DNA of 64,000 nucleotides, from contig OZ037845.1 in the NCBI GenBank assembly GCA_964035575.1, forward strand, positions 1,488,001-1,552,000, in the 5' to 3' direction. Position numbers and translations under genes: made by a program. Below the pieces are notes generated by a model, which was given only the letters and a program-made list of their open reading frames with translations, ran no database searches and was not told the DNA's origin. Shown here piece after piece: positions 15,361-43,067 of the stretch. Within the stretch, counting starts at the first letter, position 1. Each line of letters starts with the position of its first letter. Source of the stretch: Rhynchopus sp. YZ270_cl-10 (lineage: Eukaryota).

Positions 15361-15719
15361 AACTGCGGTTGCAGTTCGATGAGCACCCCGCTTGCCATCC
15401 CTTAACCCCTGTCGTTTGGTTTTTTTGTTTCCTCTTTTTTTATTTCTCTGCTTGAATGAGTATCACCATCAAAGAACAACTACCTAGTGAGTGACCTGCT
15501 GCTCCCCCCTGCTTGTCACTTACGTATGTTACGCACCCCGTTTGTGAGTGTCGTTGCCGTCTTCATTGCATCCTCTTCGTGGTAGCGGTGCATGGAACGG
15601 CACAGTACAGTCAGAAAAGATTAACCTCCAACCCCCAATTTTTTGTTCACCTTGTCTCCCCAACTCCAGCATTCACAACCATTTCACACCAGAGCCAACC
15701 AAGTTATCAAAAAGTAATT

Positions 15720-16286: not shown

Positions 16287-17162
16287 TAATCTAAGCAAAC
16301 GGCCACACTACGTGTTGTCAGGCTTCGTATCATCAGCGTATCCACATCTGCCACTAAGCTGACGAAGTCACAACATCCACACCTCCGGGAGGGTTGAACA
16401 CATCTTGATCCTTACGTGTCGCAAGGACGTCAAGGACAAGTGGAACACGCACCGGTGCTCATTGTATTGTCTCTGGACAGCCATTTTATCATGATAGAAC
16501 ATCGGTATTCGGAGAGGTACGCAGGTCCCTGTGTGCACCCCTTAAAAACCTCGGGGAAAACCCCCAAGTACTTTTACTCCTGACCGGAAAAGGTCGGCTG
16601 TGGTTGATCTCACAACCCTTTTTCTTGTTCTTTTCCCCTCGCCATTATCTAGCACAAGGCGCAGCAATAATTTTATGCCGTTTACAAAAGATACGCTATT
16701 GTGCTGCCCCCCTCATGGGCTTCGTTGTTCACGTGGTCTTATGAGAGGCACAGAGCGGCAACACTCTCCCTCTTGCCTTCACTCGTGACTTATAGTCACT
16801 CGGGTTGAAACACCAACTCGGGTGACATATTCACATTCCCCATCCCTTGGTTACCCGATATTAAAAAAGAAGTCTGTGTTCATTCGAGACGTGGTCGATT
16901 TTTTTTTTCTTTGCTTTTTGTTTTTTGCATTTTTTTTTTTTTACTTGAAGTGGTTTCTTAATTGTTGAAAAGCCAGACAACATCACTTGTGTGTCGTTGC
17001 CGTCTTCATTGCATCCTCTTCGTGGTAGCGGTGCATGGAACGGCACAGTACAGTCAGAAAAGATTAACCTGCAACCCTCATTTTTTTGTTCACCTTGTCT
17101 CCCCAACTCCAGTATTCACAACCACTTCACACCAGAGCCAACCAAGTTATCAAAAAGTAATT

Positions 17163-17738
17163 ATGTCTGAGGCAAAGCACGAGCCCCGTGACCACGACTC
17201 CTTCCAGGATGACACCCTCCCCCACGACGTGAGCCTAAATCTGGATCGAGTCAAGCAGTTCTACGTGGATGTTGAGAAGGAGGAGTACAAGCTCGAGACC
17301 CTCATGGACCTGTACGACTCCGTGTCGATTCCGCAGTCCGTGATCTTCTGCAACACCCGCCGGAAAGCCGAGTGGCTGTCCGAGAAGATGAACGACAAGG
17401 AGTTCAGCGTGTCGTTCATGCACGCGGACATGCAGAAGGGAGAGCGTGAAGATGTGATGAAGGCTTTCCGCTCCGGATCGTCACGTGTGCTGATCTCGAC
17501 TGATATGCCTCTCCGTGGTATGGACATGCCGTGCGTTTCCATCGTGATCAATTACGACCTGTCCGCCAACAGAGAGAACTACCTTCACCGTATCGGTCGT
17601 TACGGACGTTACGGACGTAAGAGTTTTGCCATCAACTTTGTCACCACGGAGGACATCCCGCTGCTCAAGGAGCTCCGTGAGTTCTACAACACCACCATCG
17701 AGGAGCTCCCCATGGACTTTGCCTCCGATCTGGAGTAG
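17163..17738 (+). CDS. Truncated eIF4A paralog T2 (CTD only, 191 aa)
   Basis: [35 protein letters not shown]...; motif V region MPLRGMD, motif [10 protein letters not shown]. Confidence 0.75.
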
Positions 17739-18641
17739 TAATCTAAGCAAACGGCCACACTACGTGTTGTCAGGCTTCGTATCATCAGCGTATCCACATC
17801 TGCCGCTAAGCTGACGAAGTCACAACATCCACACCTCCGGGAGGGTTGAACACATCTTGATCCTTACGTGTCGCAAGGACGTCAAGGACAAGTGGAACAC
17901 GCACCGGTGCTCATTGTATTGTCTCTGGACAGCCATTATGGTAAACCGGTATTCGGAGAGGTACGCAGGTCCCTATGTGCACTCCTTAAAAACCTCGGGG
18001 GAAAACCCCGAAGTACTTTTACTCCTCACGGAAAAGGTCGGCTGTGGTTGATCTCACAACCCTTTTTCTTGTTCTTTTCCCCTCGCCATTTTCTAGCACA
18101 AGGCGCAGCATTGTTGTTATTGAGTTTACAAAAGATACGCTATTCTGCTGTCTCCCTCATGGGCTTCGTTGTTCACGTGCTCTTATGAGAGGCACATAGC
18201 GGCAACACTCTCCCTCTTGCCTTCACTCGTGAAGTAAAGTCACTCGGGTTGAAACACCAACTCGGGTGACATATTCACATTCCCCATCCCTTGGTTACCC
18301 GATGTTAAAAAAGAAGTCTGTGTTCATTCCAGACCTGGTCGTTTTTGTTTTGTTTTTGTTTTCATACTTCATAGCCCGCCTGAGTCTATCTTTGCTGGTT
18401 TCCAATAACACTTTAGTGTTGAGGGAAATCGATACAACATGAAAAGAAACAGCAGAACTCTTGATTCGAGTGTCGTTGCCGTCTTCATTGCATCCTCTTC
18501 GTGGTAGCGGTGCATGGAACGGCACAGTACAGTCAGAAAAGATTAACCTCCAACCCTCATTTTTTTGTTCACCTTGTCTCCCCAACTCCAGCATTCACAA
18601 CCATTTCACACCAGAGCCAACCAAGTTATCAAAAAGTAATT

Positions 18642-19172
18642 ATGTCTGAGGCAAAGCACGAGGAGGCCCTGACCCTTGATGGAATAAAGCAGTTCTACGT
18701 GCATGTTGAGGAGGAGTACAAGCTCGAGACCCTCATGGACCTGTACGACTCTGTGTCGATTGCGCAGTCCGTGATCTTCTGCAACACCCGCCGGAAGGTC
18801 GAGTGGTTGTCCGAGAAGATGAAGGAACAGGAGTTCACCTTGTCCTTCATGCACGCAGACATGCAGAAGGGAGAGCGTGAAGATGTGATGAAGGCTTTCC
18901 GCTCTGGATCGTCACGTGTGCTGATCTCGACTGATATGCCTCTCCGTGGTATCAACATGCCGCATTTCGTTTCTATCGTGATCAATTACGACCTGTCCGC
19001 CATCAAAGAGGACTACCTTCACCGTATCGGTCGTTCCGGATGTTACGGACGTAAGGGTGTTGCCATCAACTTCGTCAACACCAAGGACGTCCCGCTGCTC
19101 AAGGAGCTCCGCGAGTTCTACAACACCACCATCGAGGAGCTCCCCATGGACTTCCCCGCCAACCTGTACTAG
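18642..19172 (+). CDS. Truncated eIF4A paralog T3 (CTD only, 176 aa)
   Basis: MSEAKHE joined to [13 protein letters not shown]; open frame; motif [10 protein letters not shown]. Confidence 0.75.
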
Positions 19173-20069
19173 TAATCTAAGCAAACGTCCACACTACGTG
19201 TTGTCAGGCTTCGTATCATCAGCGTATCCACATCTGCCACTAAGCTGACGAAGTCACAACATCCACACCTCCGGGAGGGTTGAACACATCTTGATCCTTA
19301 CGTGTCGCAAGGACGTCAAGGACAAGTGGAACACGCACCGGTGCTCATTGTATCGTCTCTGGACAGCCATTTTCCCGGTGATGGTAAACCGGTATTTGGA
19401 GAGGTACGCAGGTCCCTGTGTGCACCCCTTAAAAACCTCGGCGAAAACCCACTTACTCCTGACCGGAAAAGGTCGGCTGTGGTTGATCTCACAACCCTTT
19501 TTCTTGTTCTTTTCCCCTCGCCATTTTCTAGCACAAGGCGCAGCATTGTTGTTATTGTGTTTACAAAAGATACGCTATTGTGCTGTCCCCCTCATGGGCT
19601 TCGTTGTTCACGTGGTCTTATGAGAGGCACACAGCGGCAACACTCTCCCTCTTGCCTTCACTCGTGAATTAAAGTCACTCGGCTTGAAACACCAACTCGG
19701 GTGACATATTCACATTCCCCATCCCTTGGTTACCCGATGTTAAAAAAGAAGTCTGTGTTCATTCCAGACCTGGTGTTTTTGTGTTCTTTTCATACTTCGT
19801 AGCCCGCCTGAGTCTATCTTTGCTGGTTTCCAATAACACTTTAGTGTTGGGGGAAATCGATACAACAAGAAAAGAAACAGCAGAACTCTTGATTCGAGTG
19901 TCGTTGCCGTCTTCATTGCATCCTCTTCGTGGTAGCGGTGCATGGAACGGCACAGTACAGTCAGAAAAGATTAACCTCCAACCCCCAATTTTTTGTTCAC
20001 CTTGTCTCCCCAACTCCAGTATTCACAACCACTTCACACCAGAGCCAACCAAGTTATCAAAAAGTAATT

Positions 20070-20591
20070 ATGTCTGAGGCAAAGCACGAGGAGGCCCTGA
20101 CCCTTGATGGAATAAAGCAGTTCTACGTGCATGTTGAGGAGGAGTACAAGTTCGAGACCCTCATGGACGTGTACGACTACGTATCGATTCCTCAGTCCGT
20201 GATCTTCTGCAACACCCGCCGGAAGGTCGACTGGCTGTCCGAGAAGATGAACGACAAGGAGTTCACTGTGTCGTTCATGCACGCGAAGGGAGAGCGTGAA
20301 GATGTGATGAAGGCTTTCCGCTCTGGATCGTCACGTGTGCTGATCTCGACTGATATGCCTCTCCGTGGTATCGACATGCCGCATTTCGTTTCTATCGTGA
20401 TCAATTACGACCTGTCCGCCATCAGAGAGGACTACCTTCACCGTATCGGTCGTTCCGGATGTTACGGACGTAAGGGTGTTGCCATCAACTTCGTCACCAC
20501 GGAGGACGTCCCTCTGCTCAAGGAGCTCCAGGAGTTCTACAACACCACCATCGAGGACCTCCCCATGGACTTCGACTCCCACTTGGAGTAG
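20070..20591 (+). CDS. Truncated eIF4A paralog T4 (CTD only, 173 aa)
   Basis: Same junction as T3; in-frame loss of DMQ; open frame. Confidence 0.72.
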
Positions 20592-21378
20592 TAATCTAAG
20601 CAAACGGCCACACTACGTGTTGTCAGGCTTCGTATCATCAGCGTATCCACATCTGCCGCTAAGCTGACGAAGGCACAACATCCACACCTCCGGGAGGGTT
20701 GAACACATCTTGATCCTTACGTGCCACAAGGACGTCAAGGACAAGTGGAACTTTTACTCCTGACCGGAAAAGGTCGGCTGTGGTTGCTCTCACAACCCTT
20801 TTTCTTGTTCTTCCCCCGCCATTATCTAGCACAAGGCGCAGCATTGTTGTTATTGAGTTTACAAAAGATACGCTATTCTGCTGTCCCCCTCATGGGCTTC
20901 GTTGTTCACGTGCTCTTATGAGAGGCACATAGCGGCAACACTCTCCCTCTTGCCTTCACTCGTGAATTAAAGTCACTCGGGTTGAAACACCAACTCGGGT
21001 GACATATTCACATTCCCCATCCCTTGGTTACCCGATGTTAAAAAAGAAGTCTGTGTTCATTCGAGACGTGGTCGATTATTTGCTTTTTGTGTTTCTTTTC
21101 ATCCGTCGTAGCCCGCCTGAGTCTATCTTTGCTGGTTTCCAATAACACTTTAGTGTTGGGGGGAATACACATAACAAGAAAAGAAACAGCAGAACTCTTG
21201 ATTCGAGTGTCGTTGCCGTCTTCATTGCATCCTCTTCGTGGTAGCGGTGCATGGAACGGCACAGTACAGTCAGAAAAGATTAACCTCCAACCCCCAATTT
21301 TTTGTTCACCTTGTCTCCCCAACTCCAGTATTCACAACCACTTCACACCAGAGCCAACCAAGTTATCAAAAAGTAATT

Positions 21379-21900
21379 ATGTCTGAGGCAAAGCACGAGG
21401 AGGCCCTGACCCTTGATGGAATAAAGCAGTTCTACGTGCATGTTGAGGAGGAGTACAAGTTCGAGACCCTCATGGACGTGTACGACTACGTATCGATTCC
21501 TCAGTCCGTGATCTTCTGCAACACCCGCCGGAAGGTCGACTGGCTGTCCGAGAAGATGAACGACAAGGAGTTCACTGTGTCGTTCATGCACGCGAAGGGA
21601 GAGCGTGAAGATGTGATGAAGGCTTTCCGCTCTGGATCGTCACGTGTGCTGATCTCGACTGATATGCCTCTCCGTGGTATCGACATGCCGCATTTCGTTT
21701 CTATCGTGATCAATTACGACCTGTCCGCCATCAGAGAGGACTACCTTCACCGTATCGGTCGTTCCGGATGTTACGGACGTAAGGGTGTTGCCATCAACTT
21801 CGTCACCACGGAGGACGTCCCTCTGCTCAAGGAGCTCCAGGAGTTCTACAACACCACCATCGAGGACCTCCCCATGGACTTCGACTCCCACTTGGAGTAG
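21379..21900 (+). CDS. Truncated eIF4A paralog T5 (same protein as T4)
   Basis: Tandem duplicate of the T4 unit, period 1309 bp. Confidence 0.72.
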
Positions 21901-22687
21901 TAATCTAAGCAAACGGCCACACTACGTGTTGTCAGGCTTCGTATCATCAGCGTATCCACATCTGCCGCTAAGCTGACGAAGGCACAACATCCACACCTCC
22001 GGGAGGGTTGAACACATCTTGATCCTTACGTGCCACAAGGACGTCAAGGACAAGTGGAACTTTTACTCCTGACCGGAAAAGGTCGGCTGTGGTTGCTCTC
22101 ACAACCCTTTTTCTTGTTCTTCCCCCGCCATTATCTAGCACAAGGCGCAGCATTGTTGTTATTGAGTTTACAAAAGATACGCTATTCTGCTGTCCCCCTC
22201 ATGGGCTTCGTTGTTCACGTGCTCTTATGAGAGGCACATAGCGGCAACACTCTCCCTCTTGCCTTCACTCGTGAATTAAAGTCACTCGGGTTGAAACACC
22301 AACTCGGGTGACATATTCACATTCCCCATCCCTTGGTTACCCGATGTTAAAAAAGAAGTCTGTGTTCATTCGAGACGTGGTCGATTATTTGCTTTTTGTG
22401 TTTCTTTTCATCCGTCGTAGCCCGCCTGAGTCTATCTTTGCTGGTTTCCAATAACACTTTAGTGTTGGGGGGAATACACATAACAAGAAAAGACGCAGCA
22501 GAACTCTTGATTCGAGTGTCGTTGCCGTCTTCATTGCATCCTCTTCGTGGTAGCGGTGCATGGAACGGCACAGCACAGTCAGAAAAGATTAACCACCAAC
22601 CCTCATTTTTTTGTTCACCTTGTCTCCCCAACTCCAGTATTCACAACCACTTCACACCAGAGCCAACCAAGTTATCAAAAAGTAATT

Positions 22688-24515
22688 ATGTCTGAGGCAA
22701 AGCACGAGCCCCGTGACCACGACTCCTTCCAGGATGACACCCTCCCCGACGACGTCAAGGTTGTCCCGTCTTTCGACGAGATGCCCCTGCACACCAACCT
22801 TCTCCGTGGAATTTACTCCTACGGGTATGTAGTCTTTGCTTCACGTCTTTGCTTCCTTTCCTGTCACACAAGACTTTTGTAATCATTTCACCCCCACCAC
22901 AGATTCGAGAAGCCGTCTGCCATCCAGCAGCGTGCGATCATCCCTTTCATCAAGGGAGGTGACCTGATCGCCCAGGCCCAGTCCGGAACCGGCAAGACCG
23001 GAGCCTTCACGATTGGTCTCCTCCAGCGCATGGACTGGACCAACCGTGCCTGCCAGGGACTTGTCCTCTCGCCCACCCGCGAGCTGGCCACCCAGACCGA
23101 GAGCGTGATCTCCTCCATTGGAGAGTACCTCTGTGACGGACCGTTCTGCCACACCTTCGTGGGTATGTTGCTTGTTTTGTGTTTTATTTTGCGTCTGTTG
23201 TTTTGTCTCGTTTGGGTCTGTGATGACATTGAATACACCGCAACGGTCTGACCTGCTTCTTTGCGATGCTTACAACCGTATTGACGTCCCCTTCATTGGG
23301 GGCAACTGAGATCCTCTCACCTGTGTGTTCCCTTTCAACTGTTTCCAGCGCGCCATGTGTCCCCTTGCTTCCACATGAGGTACGGGTCAGATAGGATCGC
23401 AAGACACCCATCCACACAAAGCTTCACACCACGCAGTAATGATGATATTGTAAATACATCCGCAACGGTCTTGATGAGCCTGTTCGCAGGCGATGGTTAG
23501 AACTCTTTCTTCGTATTACACTGACACTCTTCACTCTGTCGTTTCCGTCATTTTTTTGTGTTTAGTTGTTTGTTTTTGTGACCTGACACTTTTGCACCCT
23601 TGTCTTTTCTCACCACAGGAGGAACCCGTGTGACTGACGATCTCGCCAAGCTCCAGAAGGGAGTTCTGGTGGCTGTCGGAACCCCCGGACGTGTGTTCGA
23701 CGTTATCAAGCGTGGAGCCCTGAAGACCGACCACCTTAAGGTATGCAAGAAAGCCCGTTGACGACAACACCAACAACACAGCACACACACGACACACACA
23801 CACACACAACACACAACACACACAGGTGCTCTGCCTTGACGAGGCTGACGAGATGCTTTCCCAGGGATTCTCCGAGCAGATCTACGAGATCTTCAAGTTC
23901 CTCCCCAAGGAGGTGCAGGTGTGCCTGTTCTCCGCCACCATGCCCCCGGAGGTGCTGGACCTGACCCAGAAGTTCATGCGTGAGCCCATCCGTATCCTTG
24001 TGAAGAAGGAGGCCCTGACCCTTGAGGGAATCAAGCAGTTCTACGTGGCTGTTGAGGAGGAGTACAAGCTCGAGACCCTCATGGACCTGTACGACTCCGT
24101 GTCGATTGCGCAGTCTGTGATCTTCTGCAACACCCGCCGGAAGGTCGACTGGCTGTCCGAGAAGATGAACGACAAGGAGTTCACCGTGTCGTTCATGCAC
24201 GCGGACATGCAGAAGGGAGAGCGTGAAAAGGTGATGAAGGTGTTCCGCTCTGGATCGTCGCGTGTGCTGATCTCGACCGATCTGCTTGCCCGTGGTATCG
24301 ACGTGCAGCACGTTTCCATCGTGATCAACTTCGACCTTCCCGCCAACAGAGAGAACTACCTTCACCGTATCGGTCGTTCCGGACGTTACGGACGTAAGGG
24401 TGTTGCCATCAACTTCGTCAACACCAAGGACGTCCCTCTGCTCAAGGAGCTCCAGGAGTTCTACAACACCACCATCGAGGAGCTCCCCATGGACTTCGCC
24501 TCCCACCTGGAGTAG
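22688..24515 (+). CDS. eIF4A: eIF4A copy F2; introns 22825-22902, 23163-23618, 23741-23825
   Basis: Same exon/intron lengths as F1 at offset 9155; starts MSEAK rather than MAEAK. Confidence 0.96.
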
Positions 24516-25762
24516 AATCCGGATTGTTTTGTTTCTCAAGAATGCATGTACTCGCATCGTCCTGCAGGAAGAGGAGGGAGCGAGAGTGAAGACTACCCGT
24601 TTGTTTTTATGTTGTTGTTCTTTTTGTTGGTTGAGAGAGTTCCACTCTGTGTGGGAGGGATGGTTTTGTTTGTTGCTGATGATGTTATTTTATAGCTTTG
24701 TTTTTTCCCCCTATTTTTCACCCTTTTTTTTGACATTCCTTGGGAAACCCGCGCCGAGCACTTAAGTGGAAAGAAACTTTCATATTCATTCTAAACAACA
24801 CGCAAATTAACATAACCATTACCACTTTTTTTAATAAAAAGAGCACAAATTCCCTTTACGGTAAACCACTGTCTTCTGGCAGCTAGTTTCAGGAATGTTT
24901 CAAAGAAGGAGGAAATTGTGAAAAAAGACAAGAACATAATGGATGAGCAACATTCAGAAAAGAAGTTGTGAGGTTTTTTCTTTCTTCCGTTCCCGCTATT
25001 TTTTTTTTTTTTTTTTTTTTTGGTGTTGTTCTGCTGATGATATTATTTTATAGCTTTGTTTTCCCCCTATTTTTCACCCCTTTTTTTGACATTCCTTGGG
25101 AAACCCGCGCCAAGCACTTAAGTGGACACAAACTTTCATATTTATTTTAAACAACACGCAAATTAACATAACCATTCCCACTCAAGAAAATAAAAGGTCA
25201 CAAATTCCCTTCACGGGAGACCACTGTCTTCTGGCAGCCAGTTTCAGGAATGTTTTAAATATTTTCCCCTCGCCATTATCTAGCACAAGGCGCAGAAATA
25301 TTTTTTCCAGTTTACAAAAGATACGCTATTCTGCTGTCCCCCTCATGGGCTTCGTTGTTCACGTGCTCTTATGAGAGGCACATAGCGGCAACACTCTCCC
25401 TCTTGCCTTCACTCGTGACTTAAAGTCATTCGGGTTGAAACACCAACTCGGGTGACATATTCACATTCCCCATCCCTTTGTTACCCGATGTTAAAAAAGA
25501 AGTCTGTGTTCATTCGAGACCTGGTCGATTAGTTGCTTTTTGTTTTTTTGCATTTTTTTACTTAGCGTTTTCTTCATTGTTGAAAAGCCAGACAACACCA
25601 CTTGATCTCTGCAACAGCATTTCTCTGCGAAGGCGTGCTTAAGGTATCAAACCCATTGGCAAGTGAGGGAATTCAGGATAAAGTACCAGTTGCAGTGATC
25701 TCGTTGGTGGCTCTATCTTTGCTGGTTTCCAATAACACTTTAGTGTTGAGGTGATACACATA

Positions 25763-26800
25763 CCCTCACAGTAAAAATAATGTTTTTTCAAAAATAAATT
25801 AATAAAAAAATGACCCAAAAGTAACATTTTTTTTGTAACAATTTAATAAAATGTTTTATTCGTTTTTTTGCAGTTGGGCAAAAAGTAACAAATGTTACAA
25901 CGTGGTGTGTTCCGGGGTATGGGATTTTACACATCTTCACACATCTTCACAACTCTTCACAACTTTTCACAAATTTTCACAAATTTTCACAACATAATTT
26001 TGGCCATATTTTTGTGAAGAATTGTGAAGAGTTGTGAATAGTTGTGAAAAGTTGTGAAGAGTTGTGAATTGAAATGAAAATTTGGATGAAAAAAACACAG
26101 ACGTTGTGAATATTTGTGAAGAGTTGTGAACAGTTGTGAAGAGATGTGAAGAGTTGTGAATTGGGAAAACCCCCCCTTTTTTTCTCCAATTCACAACTCT
26201 TCACAACTGTTCACAACTCTTCACAAATATTCACAACGTCTGTGTTTTTTTCATCCAAATTTTCATTTCAATTCACAACTCTTCACAACTTTTCACAACT
26301 ATTCACAACTCTTCACAATTCTTCACAAAAATATGGCCAAAATTATGTTGTGAAAAATTGTGAAAAGTTGTGAAGAGTTGTGAAGATGTGTGAAGATGTG
26401 TAAAATCCCATACCCCGGAACACACCACAACGAAAAAATAAAAAGCCCATGGTTGAAGCACGGGAGTACCATAGGGAACTGGGTTGCTGACCACACCATC
26501 CAGGCTGTACCTCAATTTTTTTTTTGCCTGCGGCGCCATTTTCCCTTTTTTGCTCCGCAAAAAAGGGTTCGTAGAGTGACTCTGTGTAAAAAGCTAGATT
26601 TTTACACCATGGGTTTCCGCGCTGTATGCTTTATTAGCCCCCCCAGTAACATTTTTGTTACGCCTGCGGCGTAACAAAATGTTACAAAAAAATAAAATCC
26701 AAAAAATGAAAAAAGTAACAAAATGCAAAAATGTTATAAAAAAAATAAAAATCGCCGAAATAATTTATTTGTAACAATAACATAATTTATACTATGAGGG
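25763..26800. mobile_element. Tc1/mariner-type MITE inserted in the eIF4A spacer
   Basis: TIR CCCTCACAGTA / TACTATGAGGG with TA on both sides; the empty site ATACACATAACAAGAAA is present in the spacers at ~21166, ~22475 and ~32275. Confidence 0.8.
25903..26427. mobile_element. Foldback (near-perfect palindromic) element nested in the MITE
   Basis: ~260-bp inverted arms starting TGGTGTGTTCCGGGGTATGGG; CAACG duplicated at 25898-25902 and 26428-26432; arms built from TTCACAACTC-type decamers. Confidence 0.85.
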
Positions 26801-27007
26801 TAACAAGAAAAGAAACAGCAGAACTCTTGATTCGAGTGTCGTTGCCGTCTTCATTGCATCCTCTTCGTGGTAGCGGTGCATGGAACGGCACAGTACAGTC
26901 AGAAAAGATTAACCTCCAACCCCCAATTTTTTGTTCACCTTGTCTCCCCAACTCCAGTATTCACAACCACTTCACACCAGAGCCAACCAAGTTATCAAAA
27001 AGTAATT

Positions 27008-27535
27008 ATGTCTGAGGCAAAGCACGAGGAGGCCCTGACCCTTGATGGAATCAAGCAGTTCTACGTGGCTGTTGAGGAGGAGTACAAGTTCGAGACCCTC
27101 ATGGACCTGTACGACTACGTATCGATTCCTCAGTCCGTGATCTTCTGCAACACCCGCCGGAAGGTCGAGTTGCTGTCTGAGAAGATGAACGACAAGGAGT
27201 TCAGCGTGTCGTTCATGCACGCGGACATGCAGAAGGGAGAGCGTGAAGATGTGATGAAGGCTTTCCGCTATGGATCGTCACGTGTGCTGATCTCGACTGA
27301 TATGCCTCACCGTGGTATCAACATGCCGCGCATTTCCATCGTGATCAACTACGACCTGTCCGCCATCAAAGAGGACTACCTTGACCGTATCGGTCGTTCC
27401 GGCCGTTACGGACGTAAGAGTGTTGCCATCAACTTTGTGACCACGAAGGACGTCCCTCTGCTCAAGGAGCTCCGCGAGTTCTACAACACCACCATCGAGG
27501 AGCTCCCCATGGACTTCGCCTCCCACTTGGAGTAG
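27008..27535 (+). CDS. Truncated eIF4A paralog T6 (CTD only, 175 aa)
   Basis: [12 protein letters not shown] junction; MPHRGIN and DRIGRSGR substitutions; open frame. Confidence 0.73.
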
Positions 27536-28458
27536 TAATCTAAGCAAACGGCCACACTACGTGTTGTCAGGCTTCGTATCATCAGCGTATCCACATCTGC
27601 CGCTAAGCTGACGAAGTCACAACATCCACACCTCCGGGAGGGTTGAACACATCTTGATCCTTAAGTGTCGCAAGGACGTCAAGAACAAGTGGAACACGCA
27701 CCGGTGCTCTTTGTATCGTCTCTGGACAGCCATTTCCCGTGATGGTAAACCGGTATTTGGAGAGGTACGCAGGTCCCTGTGTGCACCCCTTAAAAACCTC
27801 GGGGAAAACCCCCAAGTACTTTTACTCCTGACCGGAAAAGGTCGGCTGTGGTTGATCTCACAACCCTTTTTCTTGTTCTTTTCCCCTCGCCGTTATCTAG
27901 CACAAGGCACAGAAATAATTTTATGCAGTTCACAAAAGATACGCTATTCTGCTGTCCCCCTCATGGGCTTCGTTGTTCACGTGGTCTTATGAGAGGCACA
28001 GAGCGGCAACACTCTCCCTCTTGCCTTCACTCGTGACTTAAAGTCACTCGGGTTGAAACACCAACTCGGGTGACATATTCACATTCCCCATCCCTTGGTT
28101 ACCCGATGGTAAAAAAGAAGTCTGTGTTCATTCGAGACCTGGTCGTTGTTGTTTTTGTTTTCTTACTTCGGCGGCTCCGGCTACTTCGTAGCCCGCCTGA
28201 GTCTATCTTTGCTGGTTGCCAATAACACTTTAGTGTTGAGGGGAATACAAATAACAAGAAAAGAAACAGAAGAACTCTTGATTCGAGTGTCGTTGCCGTC
28301 TTCATTGCATCCTCTTCGTGGTAGCGGTGCATGGAACGGCACAGCACAGTCAGAAAAGATTAACCTCCAACCCTTATTTTTTTGTTCACCTTGTCTCCCC
28401 AACTCCAGTATTCACAACCACTTCACACCAGAGCCAACCAAGTTATCAAAAAGTAATT

Positions 28459-30252
28459 ATGTCTGAGGCAAAGCACGAGCCCCGTGACCACGACTCCTTC
28501 CAGGATGACACCCTCCCCGACGACGTCAAGGTTGTCCCGTCTTTCGACGAGATGCCCCTGCACACCAACCTTCTCCGTGGAATTTACTCCTACGGGTATG
28601 TAGTCTTTGCTTCACGTCTTTGCTTCCTTTCCTGTCACACAACACTTTTGTAATCATTTCACCCCCACCACAGATTCGAGAAGCCGTCTGCCATCCAGCA
28701 GCGTGCGATCATCCCTTTCATCAAGGGAGGTGACCTGATCGCCCAGGCCCAGTCCGGAACCGGCAAGACCGGAGCCTTCACGATTGGTCTCCTCCAGCGC
28801 ATGGACTGGACCAACCGTGCCTGCCAGGGACTTGTCCTCTCGCCCACCCGCGAGCTGGCCACCCAGACCGAGAGCGTGATCTCCTCCATTGGAGAGTACC
28901 TCTGTGACGGACCGTTCTGCCACACCTTCGTGGGTATGTTGCTTGTTTTGTGTTTTATTTTGCGTCTGTTGTTTTGTCTCGTTTGGGTCTGTGATGACAT
29001 TGAATACACCGCAACGGTCTGACCTGCTTCTTTGCGATGCTTACAACCGTATTGACGTCCCCTTCATTGGGGGCAACTGAGATCCTCTCACCTGTGTGTT
29101 CCCTTTCAACTGCTTCCAGCGCGCCATGTGTCCCCTTGCTTCCACATGAGGTACGGGTCAGATAGGATCGCAAGACACCCATCCACACAAAGCTTCACAC
29201 CACGCAGTAATGATGATATTGTAAATACATCCGCAACGGTCTTGATGAGCCTGTTCGCAGGCGATGGTTAGAACTCTTTCTTCGTATTACACTGACACTC
29301 TTCACTCTGTCGTTTCCGTCATTTTTTTGTGTTTAGTTGTTTGTTTTTGTGACCTGACACTTTTGCACCCTTGTCTTTTCTCACCACAGGAGGAACCCGT
29401 GTGACTGACGATCTCGCCAAGCTCCAGAAGGGAGTTTTGGTGGCTGTCGGAACCCCCGGACGTGTGTTCGACGTTATCAAGCGTGGAGCCCTGAAGACCG
29501 ACCACCTTAAGGTATGCAAGAAAGCCCGTTGACGACAACAACAACACTCACAACACACACAGGTGCTCTGCCTTGACGAGGCTGACGAGATGCTTTCCCA
29601 GGGATTCTCCGAGCAGATCTACGAGATCTTCAAGTTCCTCCCCAAGGAGGTGCAGGTGTGCCTGTTCTCCGCCACCATGCCCCCGGAGGTGCTGGACCTG
29701 ACCCAGAAGTTCATGCGTGAGCCCATCCGTATCCTTGTGAAGAAGGAGGCCCTGACCCTTGAGGGAATCAAGCAGTTCTACGTGGCTGTTGAGGAGGAGT
29801 ACAAGCTCGAGACCCTCATGGACCTGTACGACTCCGTGTCGATTGCGCAGTCTGTGATCTTCTGCAACACCCGCCGGAAGGTCGACTGGCTGTCCGAGAA
29901 GATGAACGACAAGGAGTTCACCGTGTCGTTCATGCACGCGGACATGCAGAAGGGAGAGCGTGAAAAGGTGATGAAGGTGTTCCGCTCTGGATCGTCGCGT
30001 GTGCTGATCTCGACCGATCTGCTTGCCCGTGGTATCGACGTGCAGCACGTTTCCATCGTGATCAACTTCGACCTTCCCGCCAACAGAGAGAACTACCTTC
30101 ACCGTATCGGTCGTTCCGGACGTTACGGACGTAAGGGTGTTGCCATCAACTTCGTCAACACCAAGGACGTCCCTCTGCTCAAGGAGCTCCAGGAGTTCTA
30201 CAACACCACCATCGAGGAGCTCCCCATGGACTTCGCCTCCCACCTGGAGTAG
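28459..30252 (+). CDS. eIF4A: eIF4A copy F3; introns 28596-28673, 28934-29389, 29512-29562
   Basis: Same exons as F1/F2; intron 3 shortened to 51 nt. Confidence 0.96.
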
Positions 30253-30788
30253 AATCCGGATTGTTTTGTTTCTCAAGAATGCATGTACTCGCATCGTCCT
30301 GCAAGAAGCGGAGGGAGCGAGAGTGAAGACTACCCGTTTGTTTTTATGTTGTTGTTCTTTTTGTTGGTGAAGAGAGTGGGTGGGGGAGGGGAGGTTTTGT
30401 TTGTTGCTGATGATGTTATTTTATGGCTTTGTTTTTCCCCCCCTATTTTTCACCCCTTTTTTTGACATTCCTTGGGAAACCCGCGCCGAGCACTTAAGTG
30501 GAAACGAACCTTCATATTCATTCTAAACAACACACAAATTAACATAACCATTCCCACCTTTTTAAATAAAAAGAGCCCAAATTCCCTTCACGGGAGACCA
30601 CTGTCTTCTGGCAGCTAGTTTCAGGAATGTTTCAAAGAAGGAGGGAAATGGGAGAAAAGACAACAAAATAATGGATGAGCAACATTCAGAAAACGAGTTG
30701 TGAGGTTTTTTCTTTCTTCCTTTTCCCCTTTTTCGTTCTTTTTAGTGTTGTTCTGCTGATGATGTTATTTTATAGCTTTGTTTTTCCC

Positions 30789-31720
30789 CAGGGGTCGCGC
30801 TAATTTTGGGGGAAATCGGCGAAAAAATGGAAAAACGGTACCAAAAAACGTACCTGAAACAGCTGTGCACCAGGGGGTGAAAAAACAGTGTTTTGTGGCA
30901 TTTCCGAGCCAATCCCAGGCTGTGGTGGGGGATATACTATTTTATATATATACGGAAAAATGGACAAAATTTTGGTGACTTAAATTTTCACAAAATATGA
31001 ACCCATACTCGTAAACAAGGGTCATTTTCAGGTCTGAAAACCCAGCTTCAGATGAAATGGTGGTGTTTTTGAAACCACTGAACAGTAGGTAGCGCCGCAG
31101 GCGCACGGTGCCCAACTTTTGTCTTCTCTTTTTCCCTTTTCTCTGCGTTCTTTTGATTGTACGAGCTGATTGCTCTCCACAGTGGTCACATGTGTGCGCA
31201 AAAACACGCTAAAGTACCCTTACTATGAAATATGAGATTCTCTGCAAGCATGTTCCCAGATAACGAAAAAAGGGAGGCGTTTTTGAGCGTTTTTGTTGAT
31301 CGCATCGTCCGATGCGGTGCAATTGCAGAAAGTGATGGGGTCATTTTGGAAAAATGGACGAATTTTCGGTATTTAAGTTTTCACCATTTTTTATTCCTGT
31401 GCACTTTTCGAGACTGCCGATTCTCGTAAAGAAGGGTCATTTTCAGTTCTTGATTGAGAACAGTAGGGAGCGCCGCAGGCGCACGGTACCCAACTTTTGT
31501 CTTTTTTTCCCCCTTTTCTCTGCTTTCTTTTCATTGCGCGAGCCAATTGCTCTCCACGGTGGGGTCACATGTGTGTGCAAAAACACGCTATAGTACGTTT
31601 ACTATGAAATGTGAGTTTCTCCGATTTAGTAAGGAAACCCCGGTTTGCAAAAAAAAAAAACGTACCGAGCAAAATCGCCAAAGATCTACGGTAGTCGGTA
31701 GCAAGTTAGCGCGACCCCTG
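30789..31720. mobile_element. hAT-type non-autonomous DNA transposon
   Basis: TIR CAGGGGTCGCGCTAA / TTAGCGCGACCCCTG; 8-bp TSD TTTTTCCC; internal ~200-bp imperfect direct repeat. Confidence 0.88.
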
Positions 31721-32488
31721 TTTTTCCCCCACCATTTTTTTTTTTTTTTGACGTTCCTTGGGAAACCCGCGCCGAGCACTAAAGTGGACACAAACTTTCA
31801 TATTCATTCTTAACAGCACGCAAATTAACATAACCATTTCCACTCAAGAAAAAAAAAGTGCGCAAATTCCCTTTCACGGGATACCACTGTCTTCTGGCAG
31901 CAAGTTTCAGGAATGTTTTAAATAATTTCCCCTCGCCATTATCTAGCACAAGGCGCAGCATTGTTGTTATTCAGTTTACAAAGATACGCTATTCTGCTGT
32001 CCCCCTCACGGGCTTCGTTGTTCACGTGCTCTTATGAGAGGCACATAGCGGCAACACTCTCCCTCTTGCCTTCACTCGTGACTTAAAGTCACTCGGGTTG
32101 AAACACCAACTCGGGTGACATATTCACATTCCCCATCCCTTGGTTACCCGATGTTAAAAAAGAAGTCTGTGTTCATTCGAGACCTGGTCGTTTTTGTTTT
32201 TGTGTTTCTTTTCATACATTGTACGCCTGAGTCTATCTTTGCTGGTTTCCAATTACACTTTAGTGTTGGGGGGAATACACATAACAAGAAAAGACGCAGC
32301 AGAACTCTTGATTCGAGTGTCGTTGCCGTCTTCATTGCATCCTCTTCGTGGTAGCGGTGCATGGAACGGCACAGCACAGTCAGAAAAGATTAACCACCAA
32401 CCCTCATTTTTTTGTTCACCTTGTCTCCCCAACTCCAGCATTCACAACCACTTCACACCAGAGCCAACCAAGTTATCAAAAAGTAATT

Positions 32489-34316
32489 ATGTCTGAGGCA
32501 AAGCACGAGCCCCGTGACCACGACTCCTTCCAGGATGACACCCTCCCCGACGACGTCAAGGTTGTCCCGTCCTTCGACGAGATGCCCCTGCACACCAACC
32601 TTCTCCGTGGAATTTACTCCTACGGGTATGTAGTCTTTGCTTCACGTCTTTGCTTCCTTTCCTGCCACACAACACTTTTGTAATCATTTCACCCCCACCA
32701 CAGATTCGAGAAGCCGTCTGCCATCCAGCAGCGTGCGATCATCCCTTTCATCAAGGGAGGTGACCTGATCGCCCAGGCCCAGTCCGGAACCGGCAAGACC
32801 GGAGCCTTCACGATTGGTCTCCTCCAGCGCATGGACTGGACCAACCGTGCCTGCCAGGGACTTGTCCTCTCGCCCACCCGCGAGCTGGCCACCCAGACCG
32901 AGAGCGTGATCTCCTCCATTGGAGAGTACCTCTGTGACGGACCGTTCTGCCACACCTTCGTGGGTATGTTGCTTGTTTTGTGTTTTATTTTGCGTCTGTT
33001 GTTTTATCTTGTTTGGGTCAATGATGACATTGAATACACCGCAACGGTCTGACCTGCTTCTTTGCGATGCTTACAACCGTATTGACGTCCCCTTCATTGG
33101 GGGCAACTGAGATCCTCTCACCTGTGTGTTCCCTTTCAACTGTTTCCAGCGCGCCATGTGTCCCCTTGCTTCCACATGAGGTACGGGTCAGATAGGATCG
33201 CAAGACACCCATCCACACAAAGCTTCACACCACGCAGTAATGATGATATTGTAAATACATCCGCAACGGTCTTGATGAGCCTGTTCGCAGGCGATGGTTA
33301 GAACTCTTTCTTCGTATTACACTGACACTCTTCACTCTGTCGTTTCCGTCATTTTTTTGTGTTTAGTTGTTTGTTTTTGTGACCTGACACTTTTGCACCC
33401 TTGTCTTTTCTCACCACAGGAGGAACCCGTGTGACTGACGATCTCGCCAAGCTCCAGAAGGGAGTTCTGGTGGCTGTCGGAACCCCCGGACGTGTGTTCG
33501 ACGTTATCAAGCGTGGAGCCCTGAAGACCGACCACCTTAAGGTATGCAAGAAAGCCCGTTGACGACAACACCAACAACACAGCACACACACGACACACAC
33601 ACACACACAACACACAACACACACAGGTGCTCTGCCTTGACGAGGCTGACGAGATGCTTTCCCAGGGATTCTCCGAGCAGATCTACGAGATCTTCAAGTT
33701 CCTCCCCAAGGAGGTGCAGGTGTGCCTGTTCTCCGCCACCATGCCCCCGGAGGTGCTGGACCTGACCCAGAAGTTCATGCGTGAGCCCATCCGTATCCTT
33801 GTGAAGAAGGAGGCCCTGACCCTTGAGGGAATCAAGCAGTTCTACGTGGCTGTTGAGGAGGAGTACAAGCTCGAGACCCTCATGGACCTGTACGACTCCG
33901 TGTCGATTGCGCAGTCTGTGATCTTCTGCAACACCCGCCGGAAGGTCGACTGGCTGTCCGAGAAGATGAACGACAAGGAGTTCACCGTGTCGTTCATGCA
34001 CGCGGACATGCAGAAGGGAGAGCGTGAAAAGGTGATGAAGGTGTTCCGCTCTGGATCGTCGCGTGTGCTGATCTCGACCGATCTGCTTGCCCGTGGTATC
34101 GACGTGCAGCACGTTTCCATCGTGATCAACTTCGACCTTCCCGCCAACAGAGAGAACTACCTTCACCGTATCGGTCGTTCCGGACGTTACGGACGTAAGG
34201 GTGTTGCCATCAACTTCGTCAACACCAAGGACGTCCCTCTGCTCAAGGAGCTCCAGGAGTTCTACAACACCACCATCGAGGAGCTCCCCATGGACTTCGC
34301 CTCCCACCTGGAGTAG
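32489..34316 (+). CDS. eIF4A: eIF4A copy F4; introns 32626-32703, 32964-33419, 33542-33626
   Basis: Same structure as F1 at offset 18956. Confidence 0.96.
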
Positions 34317-37396: not shown

Positions 37397-38081
37397 ATAC
37401 TTTATATTTTTGCGGAATTAGATAAAAAGGAAGAGATGATGAATGGACTTCCCTTTTTTTTTTCTTTTTTTTTTTTTTCTTTTGTCTGTTTGTTCCGAGA
37501 TGTTTGCCGTTTTCCCATCCCCCGGTTCCCCCCCAGCAGCAAAGCAGGATAGTGGTTAACAGAAGGACAAGAAAAAAAACTGATTCTTCCTCTCCCCCCC
37601 CCTCCCTTACTCCTACCCCCCCACTCCCACATACCTGCTTACACGACTCTTCCTTATTACCCGCACCTCAGCAAAATTCGTGATGTAAACCACGAAAGGG
37701 AAACACATGGTTTTCAGTCCACTTCCTGGTATTCTGGTCATGCAGCAAGGTACACTGTCACAGAGACGGCTTTGTATTTCAAATTTTTGGAGTACTTCAA
37801 GTATTTGGCGTACAAAAAAAAAAAAGTCGTCAAATTACCCGCAAAAATTCTCCATGCTGATGACACCACTCTCCATCATCACAGTGCGCTTATTGCTCAA
37901 CCCCACACCTCGTATCACACCATACTGCTTTCATTCCACAAAAAATACCCCCTTTTTTTTCTTTTCCAGGTGTCCCACACAACATTTGGGGCATCGCACA
38001 CACACATTGCGTTGGACAACAACGAAGGGATGTGCCCTACCATATGCCCCCAATGAGCCTGGGTGACGCCCATCTGTAACC

Positions 38082-39065
38082 ATGGCAGAGCAAAGTGCCT
38101 TGGAGCGGGCCCTGCCGTGCTTGAGGGGTGGGGGAGATGTGGTCGTCGTGACCCCAGCTGCGCCTGCGTCTGCCTGCATCGCGCCTGTATTGGAGCTCAT
38201 AGAGGAGGGTACCGTGCGGACTGTGCTTCTTGTTGTGAACGACCCTGAGTCGTACATCAATGCAGTGCGCAACGTGAACATCTCCATCGACACTACAGAC
38301 ACAGACACAGACACACCACAGGTTCTAGTCGGCACTCCGCACCAGCTTCTTATGAGGGAGGATTTCCCTGTAGATATGGTGTACATCTGTGCGTACGGCT
38401 TTGATGCGGCGCGCTATGAAGCGGCTGTGGTGTTGGTCAAAACGCTTGCGTTGCAGGTGTGTGTCATCGCGCCTGCGGTGTGTACGTTGCTTACGAAGGT
38501 GGAGGCAGCGTGCAACCACCCGGTACGCATTGTGGTGAGGGAGCGCGTTGAAACGGCGTGCGACTTTACGCAGTTCTACATTGCAGTGGAGGAGGCGTTC
38601 AAGGTCGAGACGCTGTTCGACCTATACGACAGTGTCTCCATCATACGCTCTGTCATTCTCTGTCAATGCCGCACCACAGCAGACTCCCTGCGGCAGCAGA
38701 TGGTCTCCGTAGGCCACAACGTAGGTGTGCTGCACGGAAACTCCTCTGAGCAAGACATAGTGTCCACGGTAAGAGACTTCTGTACAGGGAGCATCCGGGT
38801 CATGATCCTCACGCTTGACGATATACTAAAGAACGTAGGGAAAGACATTAGCCACCATCGCTGGCTCGCAATTTTTTACAGTGTACCCGCGCAGAGCGAA
38901 CACTATATCCACAACTTCTGCTCCAGACGCCGCTACGGCCACATGCACGACGTGATATACTTCTTCAGTGCAGCAGAAACAGGCATGCTCCTAGAGATGA
39001 ACGCATACTACAGAGACGCCATCCACGAGCTGCCCATGGATCTCTCAGCAGCCCTAACGCATTAG
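38082..39065 (+). CDS. Highly divergent intronless eIF4A-like protein, predicted catalytically inactive (327 aa)
   Basis: Colinear with eIF4A ([49 protein letters not shown]) but lacks the GKT, DEAD, SAT and HRIGR motifs. Confidence 0.85.
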   Translation: MAEQSALERALPCLRGGGDVVVVTPAAPASACIAPVLELIEEGTVRTVLLVVNDPESYINAVRNVNISIDTTDTDTDTPQVLVGTPHQLLMREDFPVDMVYICAYGFDAARYEAAVVLVKTLALQVCVIAPAVCTLLTKVEAACNHPVRIVVRERVETACDFTQFYIAVEEAFKVETLFDLYDSVSIIRSVILCQCRTTADSLRQQMVSVGHNVGVLHGNSSEQDIVSTVRDFCTGSIRVMILTLDDILKNVGKDISHHRWLAIFYSVPAQSEHYIHNFCSRRRYGHMHDVIYFFSAAETGMLLEMNAYYRDAIHELPMDLSAALTH

Positions 39066-39237
39066 CCAGAGTTTGCTTGCCTATGCTCTGGCCTGAAAAA
39101 TAAATAAAGAACGTGAAAAAGAACAATAGACAGGTGGGGTTTTTTACTATAAGTTTGCTATGTTTGGTCACTTCCAGTGACCAAACTTCCTCTCCCACCC
39201 TCAACACAACACACCAGAGACAAATAAGACATCAATC

Positions 39238-41053
39238 ATGGCTGAGGCAAAGCACGAGCCCCGTGACCACGACTCCTTCCAGGATGACACCCTCCCCGAC
39301 GACGTCAAGGTTGTCCCGTCTTTCGACGAGATGCCCCTGCACACCAACCTTCTCCGTGGAATTTACTCCTACGGGTATGCAGTCTTTGCTTCCTTTCCTG
39401 TCACACAACACTTTTGTAATCATTTCACCCCCACCACAGATTCGAGAAGCCGTCTGCCATCCAGCAGCGCGCGATCATCCCTTTCATCAAGGGAGGTGAC
39501 CTGATCGCCCAGGCCCAGTCCGGAACCGGCAAGACCGGAGCCTTCACGATTGGTCTCCTCCAGCGCATGGACTGGACCAACCGTGCCTGCCAGGGACTTG
39601 TCCTCTCGCCCACCCGCGAGCTGGCCACCCAGACCGAGAGCGTGATCTCCTCCATTGGAGAGTACCTCTGTGACGGACCGTTCTGCCACACCTTCGTGGG
39701 TATGTTGCTTGTTTTGTGTTTTATTTTGCGTCTGTTGTTTTGTCTCGTTTGGGTCTGTGATGACATTGAATACACCGCAACGGTCTGACCTGCTTCTTTG
39801 CGATGCTTACAACCGTATTGACGTCCCCTTCATTGGGGGCAACTGAGATCCTCTCACCTGTGTGTTCCCTTTCAACTGCTTCCAGCGCGCCATGTGTCCC
39901 CTTGCTTCCACATGAGGTACGGGTCAGATAGGATCGCAAGACACCCATCCACACACAAAGCTTCACACCACGCAGTAATGATGATATTGTAAATACATCC
40001 GCAACGGTCTTGATGAGCCTGTTCGCAGGCGATGGTTAGAACTCTTTCTTCGTATTACACTGACACTCTTCACTCTGTCGTTACCGTCATTTTTTGTGTT
40101 TTGTTGTTTGTTTTTGTGACCTGACACTTTTTCACCCTTGTCTTTTCTCACCACAGGAGGAACCCGTGTGACTGACGATCTCGCCAAGCTCCAGAAGGGA
40201 GTTCTGGTGGCTGTCGGAACCCCCGGACGTGTGTTCGACGTTATCAAACGTGGAGCCCTGAAGACCGATCACCTTAAGGTATGCAAGAAAGCCCGTTGAC
40301 GACAACACCAACAACACAGCACACACACGACACACACACACACACAACACACAACACACACAGGTGCTCTGCCTTGACGAGGCTGACGAGATGCTTTCCC
40401 AGGGATTCTCCGAGCAGATCTACGAGATCTTCAAGTTCCTCCCCAAGGAGGTGCAGGTGTGCCTGTTCTCCGCCACCATGCCCCCGGAGGTGCTGGACCT
40501 GACCCAGAAGTTCATGCGTGAGCCCATCCGTATCCTTGTGAAGAAGGAGGCCCTGACCCTTGAGGGAATCAAGCAGTTCTACGTGGCTGTTGAGGAGGAG
40601 TACAAGCTCGAGACCCTCATGGACCTGTACGACTCCGTGTCGATTGCGCAGTCTGTGATCTTCTGCAACACCCGCCGGAAGGTCGACTGGCTGTCCGAGA
40701 AGATGAACGACAAGGAGTTCACCGTGTCGTTCATGCACGCGGACATGCAGAAGGGAGAGCGTGAAAAGGTGATGAAGGTGTTCCGCTCTGGATCGTCGCG
40801 TGTGCTGATCTCGACCGATCTGCTTGCCCGTGGTATCGACGTGCAGCACGTTTCCATCGTGATCAACTTCGACCTTCCCGCCAACAGAGAGAACTACCTT
40901 CACCGTATCGGTCGTTCCGGACGTTACGGACGTAAGGGTGTTGCCATCAACTTCGTCAACACCAAGGACGTCCCTCTGCTCAAGGAGCTCCAGGAGTTCT
41001 ACAACACCACCATCGAGGAGCTCCCCATGGACTTCGCCTCCCACTTGGAGTAG
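39238..41053 (+). CDS. eIF4A: eIF4A copy F5; introns 39375-39439, 39700-40156, 40279-40363
   Basis: Same exons as F1 (MAEAK start), with a distinct 5' flank. Confidence 0.96.
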
Positions 41054-43031: not shown

Positions 43032-43067
43032 CATGCAACGGTGATCAACAGGAATACTTCGCACCAC

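What the first reader, a model, noticed from the sequence alone, without database searches (positions are those of the whole stretch)
38082..39065. Old intronless eIF4A pseudo-helicase retained in the same array
Seen: a 327-aa open frame alignable to both domains. AQSGTGKT aligns to TPAAPASA, LDEAD to AYGFD, SAT to APA, and HRIGRSGR to HNFCSRRR. The best-kept stretch is [24 protein letters not shown], the same CTD-start region kept in T1-T6. Inference: a second, independent route to an inactive eIF4A mimic, whose open frame despite deep divergence implies selection and supports the decoy/regulator idea.
Basis: partly seen in the sequence, partly recalled or inferred. Interest (0 to 1): 0.75.

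Follow-up and report, generated by a model that had tools for sequence, protein, structure and literature searches.

The report
Catalytically dead eIF4A keeps docking patch
A marine diplonemid protist carries, inside its cluster of genes for the translation helicase eIF4A, an intact single-exon copy that has lost all ATP- and RNA-handling motifs but selectively kept one surface patch, so it likely works as a non-enzymatic plug on the eIF4G-type scaffold, although its expression and binding are untested.

Summary
The 327-aa ORF (38082-39065, +) is real and derives from eIF4A. It sits 172 nt upstream of one of five intact eIF4A genes; the nearest named relative of those genes is Rhynchopus euleeides (96%). 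The ATP/RNA motifs are destroyed, yet AlphaFold2 builds both RecA domains (pLDDT 86). Selection is supported: no stops, no new prolines and conservative changes in the C-terminal domain (each P<=0.03 against neutral decay). dN/dS alone is inconclusive. Retention is uneven: 15 of 16 invariant residues survive in the QFYIAV...DLYDSVSI patch, against 10 of 55 in the motifs and 24 of 63 elsewhere in the domain (scan-corrected p=0.0005), and gene conversion does not explain it. The patch carries two of five known eIF4G contacts; two others are changed and one is deleted. Docking onto a stand-in viral eIF4G-like protein gave weak support (0.49, best control 0.01). No ortholog was found and expression is untested. 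This scan noted motif-dead eIF4A copies before on other DNA (Naegleria, a fungus, a giant virus). Verdict: a selected eIF4A pseudo-helicase; the decoy role is plausible but unproven.

The parts
38082..39065 (+). Single-exon ORF, 327 aa, eIF4A-derived pseudo-helicase (P0001)
38082..38534 (+). Shortened RecA1-like domain (res 1-151): N-terminal ~46 aa and Q motif missing or altered, motifs I/Ia/Ib/II/III lost; parallel strands and helices predicted
   Evidence: model 4-324 aligns to 2vso_A 46-393, Z 23.3, rmsd 6.7, 307 aligned
38151..38174 (+). Walker A / motif I equivalent, TPAAPASA for AQSGTGKT
38550..39056 (+). RecA2-like domain (res 157-325), fold kept; motifs IV, V, VI degenerate
   Evidence: Z 23.4, rmsd 1.9 A over 165 residues to human eIF4A1 CTD 9i9g
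38571..38642 (+). Selectively retained patch, res 164-187, with D180 and D183 (= human eIF4A1 D265 and E268, eIF4G contacts)
38910..38933 (+). Motif VI equivalent HNFCSRRR; the Arg at motif position 2 (R in 85 of 85 aligned homologs) is Asn
37950..38081 (+). Candidate trans-splice acceptors (pyrimidine tract + AG at 37968; AG at 38026 and 38056) and three upstream ATGs (38030, 38044, 38053); unverified
   Evidence: sequence only
39238..41053 (+). Adjacent intact 4-exon eIF4A1 gene (402 aa); splicing seen in contigs of three further runs
13533..34316 (+). Rest of the array: four more intact eIF4A1 genes (13533, 22688, 28459, 32489) and six CTD-only copies T1-T6 (starts 15720, 17163, 18642, 20070, 21379, 27008)

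Best explanation
This is an eIF4A1 duplicate that has lost its ATP- and RNA-binding motifs but, under selection, kept its predicted two-RecA fold and one C-terminal-domain patch, so it likely binds the eIF4A site of an eIF4G-type MIF4G scaffold without ATP and would make that complex helicase-dead. Shown: homology, motif loss, open frame, non-neutral substitution pattern, and concentrated retention of res 164-187. Predicted: the fold and MIF4G docking. Inferred: origin by local duplication with internal deletions, transcription as part of the unidirectional gene cluster, and a damping or gating effect on one particular eIF4F-like complex rather than on bulk translation.
For: Neutral decay to the same CTD identity (0.37-0.38) leaves the CTD stop-free in 0-3% of 1000 runs, proline-free in <=0.8% and equally conservative in <=0.3%, under all four null settings; over the whole aligned frame 0-5 of 2000 runs stay open. 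Synonymous codon use scores 0.156 per codon, inside the range of six neighbouring genes (0.03-0.38) and above all 102 non-coding windows (max -0.03). Residues >=95% invariant in 43 close eIF4A homologs are kept 15 of 16 in the patch, 10 of 55 in the motifs and 24 of 63 in the rest of the CTD (p 5e-5; best-window permutation p 0.0005). With a pan-eukaryote reference the counts are 10 of 10, 10 of 51 and 20 of 48. The patch codons differ synonymously at 11 of 21 identical residues, so it is not a recent conversion tract. D180 and D183 map to human D265 and E268, eIF4G contacts whose mutation impairs binding (PMC7470955, section 15 part 1 and passages read). The CTD alone binds eIF4G almost as well as full eIF4A (Kd 1.3 vs 0.6 uM; PMC3064780 passages). 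ESMFold2 docking of res 150-327 on a giant-virus eIF4G-like protein: weak support, 0.49 against best of 3 controls 0.01, runs agree in >=60% of contacts, partner pLDDT >=73. That mark was reached by 51 of 78 solved and 2 of 108 mismatched pairs, but at <=0.60 by only 5 of the 78 and by all 4 mismatches that passed; a like complex (2VSO) is solved, so the pass may be from memory. An ATPase-dead T. brucei EIF4AI slows growth ~15% and switches eIF4F partner (PMC12063893 passages).
Against: Three of five listed eIF4G contacts are not kept: T298 -> N213 (T in 43 of 43 close homologs), D296 -> G211 (a variable column: N, E, D, Q), and the R45 region is deleted. Human D296K alone reduced binding. Part of the patch is a strand and an amphipathic helix of the domain core, so fold constraint explains some retention; solvent exposure could not be computed. 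One copy in the window faces five intact genes, so mass-action competition would be weak (inference). No ortholog in four searches, so current selection cannot be dated. dN/dS is inconclusive: the codon-position pattern is matched by synonymous change on the intact gene's branch alone (P 0.06-0.40). The docking partner was a stand-in from another organism. The AF2 model used an alignment of mostly intact eIF4As, which biases it to that fold. Expression is untested.
Confidence: 0.42

Rival explanations
1. The protein docks on a MIF4G scaffold as a stable, positive subunit or adaptor of a specialised complex (a divergent eIF4G paralog, NOT1, CWC22 or NOM1/Sgd1 type), not as a competitor of eIF4A.
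For: Solved complexes of related helicases with MIF4G-type partners are among the top structural matches (CWC22-eIF4A3 6yvh/4c9b, CNOT1-DDX6 4ct4, Gle1-DDX19 6b4i); that they use the same RecA2 face is recalled. Changes at the D296/T298 equivalents could mark a switch of partner. Kinetoplastids have five eIF4Gs (PMC5862402 passages). The RecA1 fold is also predicted to be kept, which a pure CTD plug would not need.
Against: No partner identified; shared residues point to euglenozoan eIF4A1 rather than other subfamilies (12 against 6 diagnostic columns plus a shared one-residue deletion), though the AU test does not reject an eIF4A3-like position (p 0.25).
Confidence: 0.23
2. It is a selected pseudo-helicase with a new partner or role; the patch is kept for folding or for a non-MIF4G ligand.
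For: The patch includes core strand and helix residues; K174 is invariant in all 86 aligned sequences. Most of 17 other motif-degenerate eIF4A homologs also keep 6-9 of 10 patch residues, although they were found with this query and so are biased.
Against: Equally invariant CTD residues outside the patch are mostly lost (24 of 63 kept), and acidic or polar patch residues (E170, E171, E176, T177, D180, D183, S184, S186) are kept.
Confidence: 0.17
3. The gene was functional for a long time but has recently died or is not matured into mRNA; the signs of selection are historical.
For: No ortholog. Three upstream ATGs follow the strongest acceptor-like site. Degenerate tandem copies of gene ends that stay out of mature mRNA are described in D. 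papillatum (PMC10161547 passages).
Against: No stop or frameshift, gene-like codon use, and GC 0.74 (34 of 46) at four-fold sites that no longer match the parent; death would have to be very recent. An AG at 38056 gives an ATG-free leader.
Confidence: 0.14
4. It is a neutrally decaying pseudogene or an assembly artefact that stays open by chance, with the patch refreshed by gene conversion.
For: An 80%-identical 61-nt DNA match to the intact copies lies in the patch; dN/dS is inconclusive.
Against: Simulations; 11 synonymous differences in the patch; 0 differences in contigs of three runs.
Confidence: 0.04

Closest known systems
eIF4A1 (yeast Tif1/2, human eIF4A1, T. brucei EIF4AI; host's own array copies)
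   Same: Two-RecA fold (Foldseek top hit 2vso_A, E 9e-17), 31% identity over 312 aligned codons to the host's copy, euglenozoan-type CTD signature, D265/E268-equivalent contacts.
   Different: Q, I, Ia, Ib, II, III, V and VI motifs lost or broken; 75 aa shorter; no introns; T298 and R45 equivalents lost.
Utp25/Def pseudohelicase (PMC9539457, parts 1-2 of 4 read)
   Same: DEAD-box fold with vestigial motifs, arisen by duplication and divergence.
   Different: Utp25 is conserved from yeast to human, essential, nucleolar, 721 aa; this protein has no detected ortholog, clearly descends from eIF4A1, lies in the parent's array, and is untested.
Engineered inactive eIF4A mutants (DQAD, PRRVAA; PMC12063893, PMC7470955 passages)
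   Same: Inactive helicase that can still meet eIF4G; a precedent for the proposed effect.
   Different: These are point mutants with the whole eIF4G interface and most motifs intact; they are laboratory constructs, not natural genes.
Motif-degenerate eIF4A homologs in other eukaryotes (Blastocladiella britannica KAI9224585, Monocercomonoides exilis 'eIF4a-12', Nonionella stella) and this scan's unverified notes on Naegleria, a fungus and a giant virus
   Same: eIF4A-derived, motifs eroded, patch largely kept.
   Different: Not orthologs (best hits 25-40% identity over partial stretches, no closer than intact eIF4A); this one is the most extreme of the 18 compared (10 of 51 motif residues, 10 of 10 patch residues).

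Membership tests
DEAD-box helicase (active) | Two tandem RecA-like domains | tested here: met
   AF2 pLDDT 86.4, pTM 0.70 with an eIF4A alignment; VIA Z 23.3, rmsd 6.7, 307 aligned to 2vso_A; CTD pLDDT 73-76 without an alignment
DEAD-box helicase (active) | Q motif and Walker A (motif I, GKT) | tested here: not met
   Q motif missing or altered; TPAAPASA for AQSGTGKT
DEAD-box helicase (active) | Motif II DEAD and motif III SAT | tested here: not met
   DEAD falls in a deletion; SAT -> APA
DEAD-box helicase (active) | Motifs V (ARGID) and VI (HRIGRxGR) | tested here: not met
   LKNVGKD with insertions; HNFCSRRR
DEAD-box helicase (active) | RNA-stimulated ATPase and unwinding | not testable with these tools
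   Needs an assay
eIF4A1 lineage (by descent) | Closest sequence and structure matches are eIF4A | tested here: met
eIF4A1 lineage (by descent) | Groups with euglenozoan/diplonemid eIF4A1 in a tree | tested here: inconclusive
   Branch too long (4.3-10); AU p 0.50 host, 0.70 diplonemids, 0.25 eIF4A3-like; 12 against 6 diagnostic columns and a shared deletion favour Euglenozoa
Pseudohelicase (pseudoenzyme, criteria of PMC9539457) | Catalytic motifs lost in sequence | tested here: met
   10 of 55 invariant motif residues kept
Pseudohelicase (pseudoenzyme, criteria of PMC9539457) | Helicase structure retained | tested here: met
   Predicted model only
Pseudohelicase (pseudoenzyme, criteria of PMC9539457) | Expressed, with a function shown despite no activity | not testable with these tools
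   Only indirect evidence from selection
eIF4G/MIF4G-binding eIF4A mimic | eIF4G contact residues D265, E268, D296, T298, R45 | tested here: inconclusive
   2 of 5 kept, 2 changed, 1 deleted
eIF4G/MIF4G-binding eIF4A mimic | Docks on a MIF4G domain | tested here: inconclusive
   Weak support with a viral stand-in: 0.49 against best control 0.01; a like complex is solved
Processed retrocopy | Loss of parental introns, dispersed site, poly(A) remnant and target-site duplication | tested here: inconclusive
   No introns, but it lies in tandem with the parent; intron 1 falls in the deleted part; poly(A) remnant and target-site duplication not searched for

The most novel reading that the evidence does not exclude
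An expressed, natural dominant-negative eIF4A: a genome-encoded plug for the eIF4A site of eIF4G that switches a diplonemid eIF4F complex off or into a helicase-independent mode. It would be one case of a repeatedly evolved, undescribed class of eIF4A pseudo-helicases in unrelated eukaryotes.
Probability: 0.27. Interest if true: 0.78.

Novelty: new variant of a known kind. Interest (0 to 1): 0.5.

Why it matters
Known natural brakes on eIF4A (such as PDCD4) bind the helicase. A dead eIF4A that occupies the scaffold instead would be a different kind of translational control, relevant in Euglenozoa, where genes are co-transcribed in clusters and eIF4F-like complexes are multiplied. Very few pseudohelicases are validated: PMC9539457 counted two proposals in 2022. 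The sharp split between lost motifs and one kept patch gives a direct experiment. No paper on a natural motif-dead eIF4A paralog, or on diplonemid eIF4A, turned up; the library lacks most subscription journals and supplements were not read.

Tried and rejected
Expression: contigs from four further runs were laid (X7, X8, X10, X14, of 22 listed). X7, X10 and X14 hold spliced, near-identical transcripts of the intact eIF4A at low word depth; none covers the ORF apart from short matches that run on into other eIF4A sequences. Contigs show presence, not absence, and the intact gene is multi-copy, so this says nothing about expression. X6 had too little cover. Orthologs: none among 4047 candidates of 179-573 aa (only intact eIF4A P0002), 179 shorter candidates, the best 150 of 1474 hits among 1.84 billion representatives, or JGI metagenome contigs (1 of 112 pattern matches, the same intact eIF4A); longer forms were covered only. 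P0134, P0185, P0180, P0182 were examined as candidates and rejected (other lineages or no closer than intact eIF4A). Trees: branch at the cap under C20; long-branch joins; no dating possible. dN/dS (CTD dN 0.61, dS ~2.6, saturated) was set aside as evidence. NTD codon alignment is unreliable, so tests rest on the CTD. A hidden upstream exon was not evident in three-frame translation or DNA self-comparison. The whole genome is not held, so host eIF4G and copy number elsewhere could not be examined. The ESM Atlas could not read P0001; a homolog gave only generic DEAD-box clusters. Two primary structure papers were not held, so the full eIF4G interface list is missing. Corrections: exon borders were off by one; the methyltransferase control was out of frame; T1-T6 starts were missed.

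Full report
Observation. The frame 38082-39065 (+) gives 327 residues without a stop. Its best solved relatives are yeast and human eIF4A (E 7e-25 and 2e-22), while Pfam finds only a sub-threshold Helicase_C match (19.4 bits, cut-off 23.5). Contigs from three runs that retain introns and intergenic DNA match the ORF with no differences; one X1 contig spans it whole. One of these runs may be the source of the assembly.

Setting. The ORF lies in a same-strand array with five intact four-exon eIF4A genes, 1-6 nt apart in coding sequence, and six CTD-only copies, T1-T6. It ends 172 nt before the last intact copy. The intact protein is 96% identical to Rhynchopus euleeides, 93% to R. humris and 89% to one Diplonema papillatum eIF4A, so the host is a diplonemid near Rhynchopus (inference). 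Spliced contigs confirm the intact gene's introns. Within the window the ORF is single-copy; its only eIF4A-related DNA match is a 61-73-nt stretch at 75-80% in the CTD start. No whole genome is held.

Anatomy. AlphaFold2 with an 86-sequence alignment gives pLDDT 86.4 and two RecA-like domains. The CTD superposes on human eIF4A1 CTD at 1.9 A over 165 residues, Z 23.4, and the whole model aligns to yeast eIF4A from residue 46 onward; Foldseek ranks 2vso_A first. The alignment biases the model towards this fold, but the CTD also reached pLDDT 73-76 without one. The Q motif region is missing or altered, motif I reads TPAAPASA, III APA, V is broken by insertions and VI reads HNFCSRRR. ATP binding and hydrolysis are therefore very unlikely (established knowledge of DEAD-box motifs; PMC9539457 parts 1-2).

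Is the frame under selection? Synonymous sites are saturated against the intact gene (pS 0.73; 9 of 46 four-fold sites identical), against about 0.11 for T1-T6, so this copy is much older than they are. The apparent dN/dS of about 0.25-0.3 is not good evidence, because synonymous change on the intact gene's branch alone reproduces the codon-position pattern (P 0.40 and 0.06). Three tests survive that control. At matched CTD identity, neutral decay gives 4-6 stops (0-3% stop-free), 5-9 new prolines (observed 0; P <= 0.008) and harsher substitutions (BLOSUM -0.7 against -0.25 observed; P <= 0.003). Over the 312 aligned codons 0-5 of 2000 neutral runs stayed open in each of 12 settings. Indels were not simulated; about ten alignment gaps are compatible with the frame. 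Synonymous codon use resembles neighbouring genes and exceeds all 102 non-coding control windows. These tests show selection during most of the divergence, not necessarily today.

What was kept. Among columns at least 95% invariant in 43 close homologs, the ORF keeps 15 of 16 in canonical 244-267, 10 of 55 in the motifs, 24 of 63 elsewhere in the CTD and 20 of 65 elsewhere in the NTD (Fisher p 5e-5 against other CTD; best-window permutation p 0.0005). Eleven of 21 identical residues in and next to the patch use different codons, which excludes recent conversion. The patch holds D180 and D183, equal to human D265 and E268. PMC7470955 (section 15 part 1 and passages) lists five eIF4G contacts: D265, E268, D296, T298, R45. 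Here D296 is Gly in a variable column, T298 is Asn in a column that is Thr in 43 of 43, and R45 is deleted. The CTD supplies about 95% of eIF4G binding energy in yeast (PMC3064780 passages). No host eIF4G was available, so a giant-virus eIF4G-like protein found head-to-head with a viral eIF4A (weak MIF4G match E 4e-4 in 1 of 3 homologs) served as stand-in. The result was weak support: 0.49 against best control 0.01, contacts agreeing in at least 60%, partner pLDDT at least 73, alignments not used. Passes at or under 0.60 came from 5 of 78 solved pairs and all 4 mismatches that passed, and a like complex is solved, so this shows likeness, not binding.

Origin and relatives. No ortholog was found; the protein is a singleton cluster, although transcriptomes of several diplonemids and the D. 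papillatum proteins are in the collection. Trees cannot place so long a branch. A shared one-residue deletion and 12 against 6 diagnostic CTD columns favour a euglenozoan eIF4A1 parent. Lack of introns does not prove retroposition: the gene is in tandem with its parent, intron 1 lies in the deleted part, and only about 41% of D. papillatum genes have introns (PMC10161547 passages). T1-T6 are young, with pN/pS 0.43-0.79 and several patch changes, and do not add independent support. Motif-eroded eIF4A homologs that keep much of the patch occur in other eukaryotes (sample biased by the query), and this scan has noted similar cases on other DNA (unchecked).

Mechanism and verdict. Most likely the gene encodes a folded, ATP-independent eIF4A mimic that docks on an eIF4G-type MIF4G domain and leaves that complex helicase-dead (0.42). 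A positive adaptor role on another MIF4G scaffold (0.23), a non-MIF4G role (0.17) and recent death (0.14) remain; neutral decay or artefact is unlikely (0.04). It is not a member of the active DEAD-box helicases; it fits the pseudohelicase kind by sequence and predicted structure, with function untested. No description of such a natural eIF4A paralog was found in the listings; subscription papers and supplements were not seen. The finding is real and sharply testable, but it rests on one genome with no transcript and no ortholog, so interest is 0.5.

Noticed in passing
window 15720-27535 (T1-T6): Six open CTD-only eIF4A copies of 173-191 aa, each a short N-terminal piece fused to canonical ~234-402; pS ~0.11, pN/pS 0.43-0.79, changes clustered in motif V (326-335).
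   Followed up: partly
P0181 (Ploeotia vitrea, EukProt): Euglenid eIF4A paralog with an N-terminal BRCT domain (Pfam E 2e-6) and altered Q, III and V motifs.
   Followed up: partly
window 39854-40066 and 42820-43250: A 183-212-nt element inside intron 2 of the intact eIF4A genes recurs twice, 97-100% identical, just upstream of the methyltransferase ORF at 43410; possibly an intron-encoded small RNA or a short mobile element. Not scanned against Rfam.
   Followed up: no
window 13500-13533 and 39210-39238: The 5' leader of a spliced eIF4A contig in run X7 resembles the sequence upstream of the 13533 copy, not of the 39238 copy; three runs also show an allele (39671 C) found in none of the five assembled copies, hinting at further copies or strain differences.
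   Followed up: partly
window 36500-37420 and 37748-37782: Highly repeated elements with long G runs and an inverted repeat upstream of the ORF, matched by very many contigs.
   Followed up: no
window 55347-59826 (-): Retroelement with a reverse-transcriptase ORF of 1086 aa (RVT_1, E 4e-14) and an overlapping 462-aa ORF, flanked by tandem repeats.
   Followed up: no
window 1520-6275, 43410-44402, 47470-50409: Two ammonium transporter genes, a methyltransferase and a protein kinase on the same strand as the array; ORFs at 9060-9983 and 11171-11827 have no Pfam match.
   Followed up: no
L002 899-1900, L004 808-1887, L005 898-1911: Giant-virus contigs with an eIF4G-like gene head-to-head with an intact eIF4A; already noted by this scan.
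   Followed up: partly
P0185, P0180, P0182: Motif-eroded eIF4A homologs in Blastocladiella britannica, Monocercomonoides exilis and Nonionella stella that keep 7-9 of 10 patch residues.
   Followed up: partly
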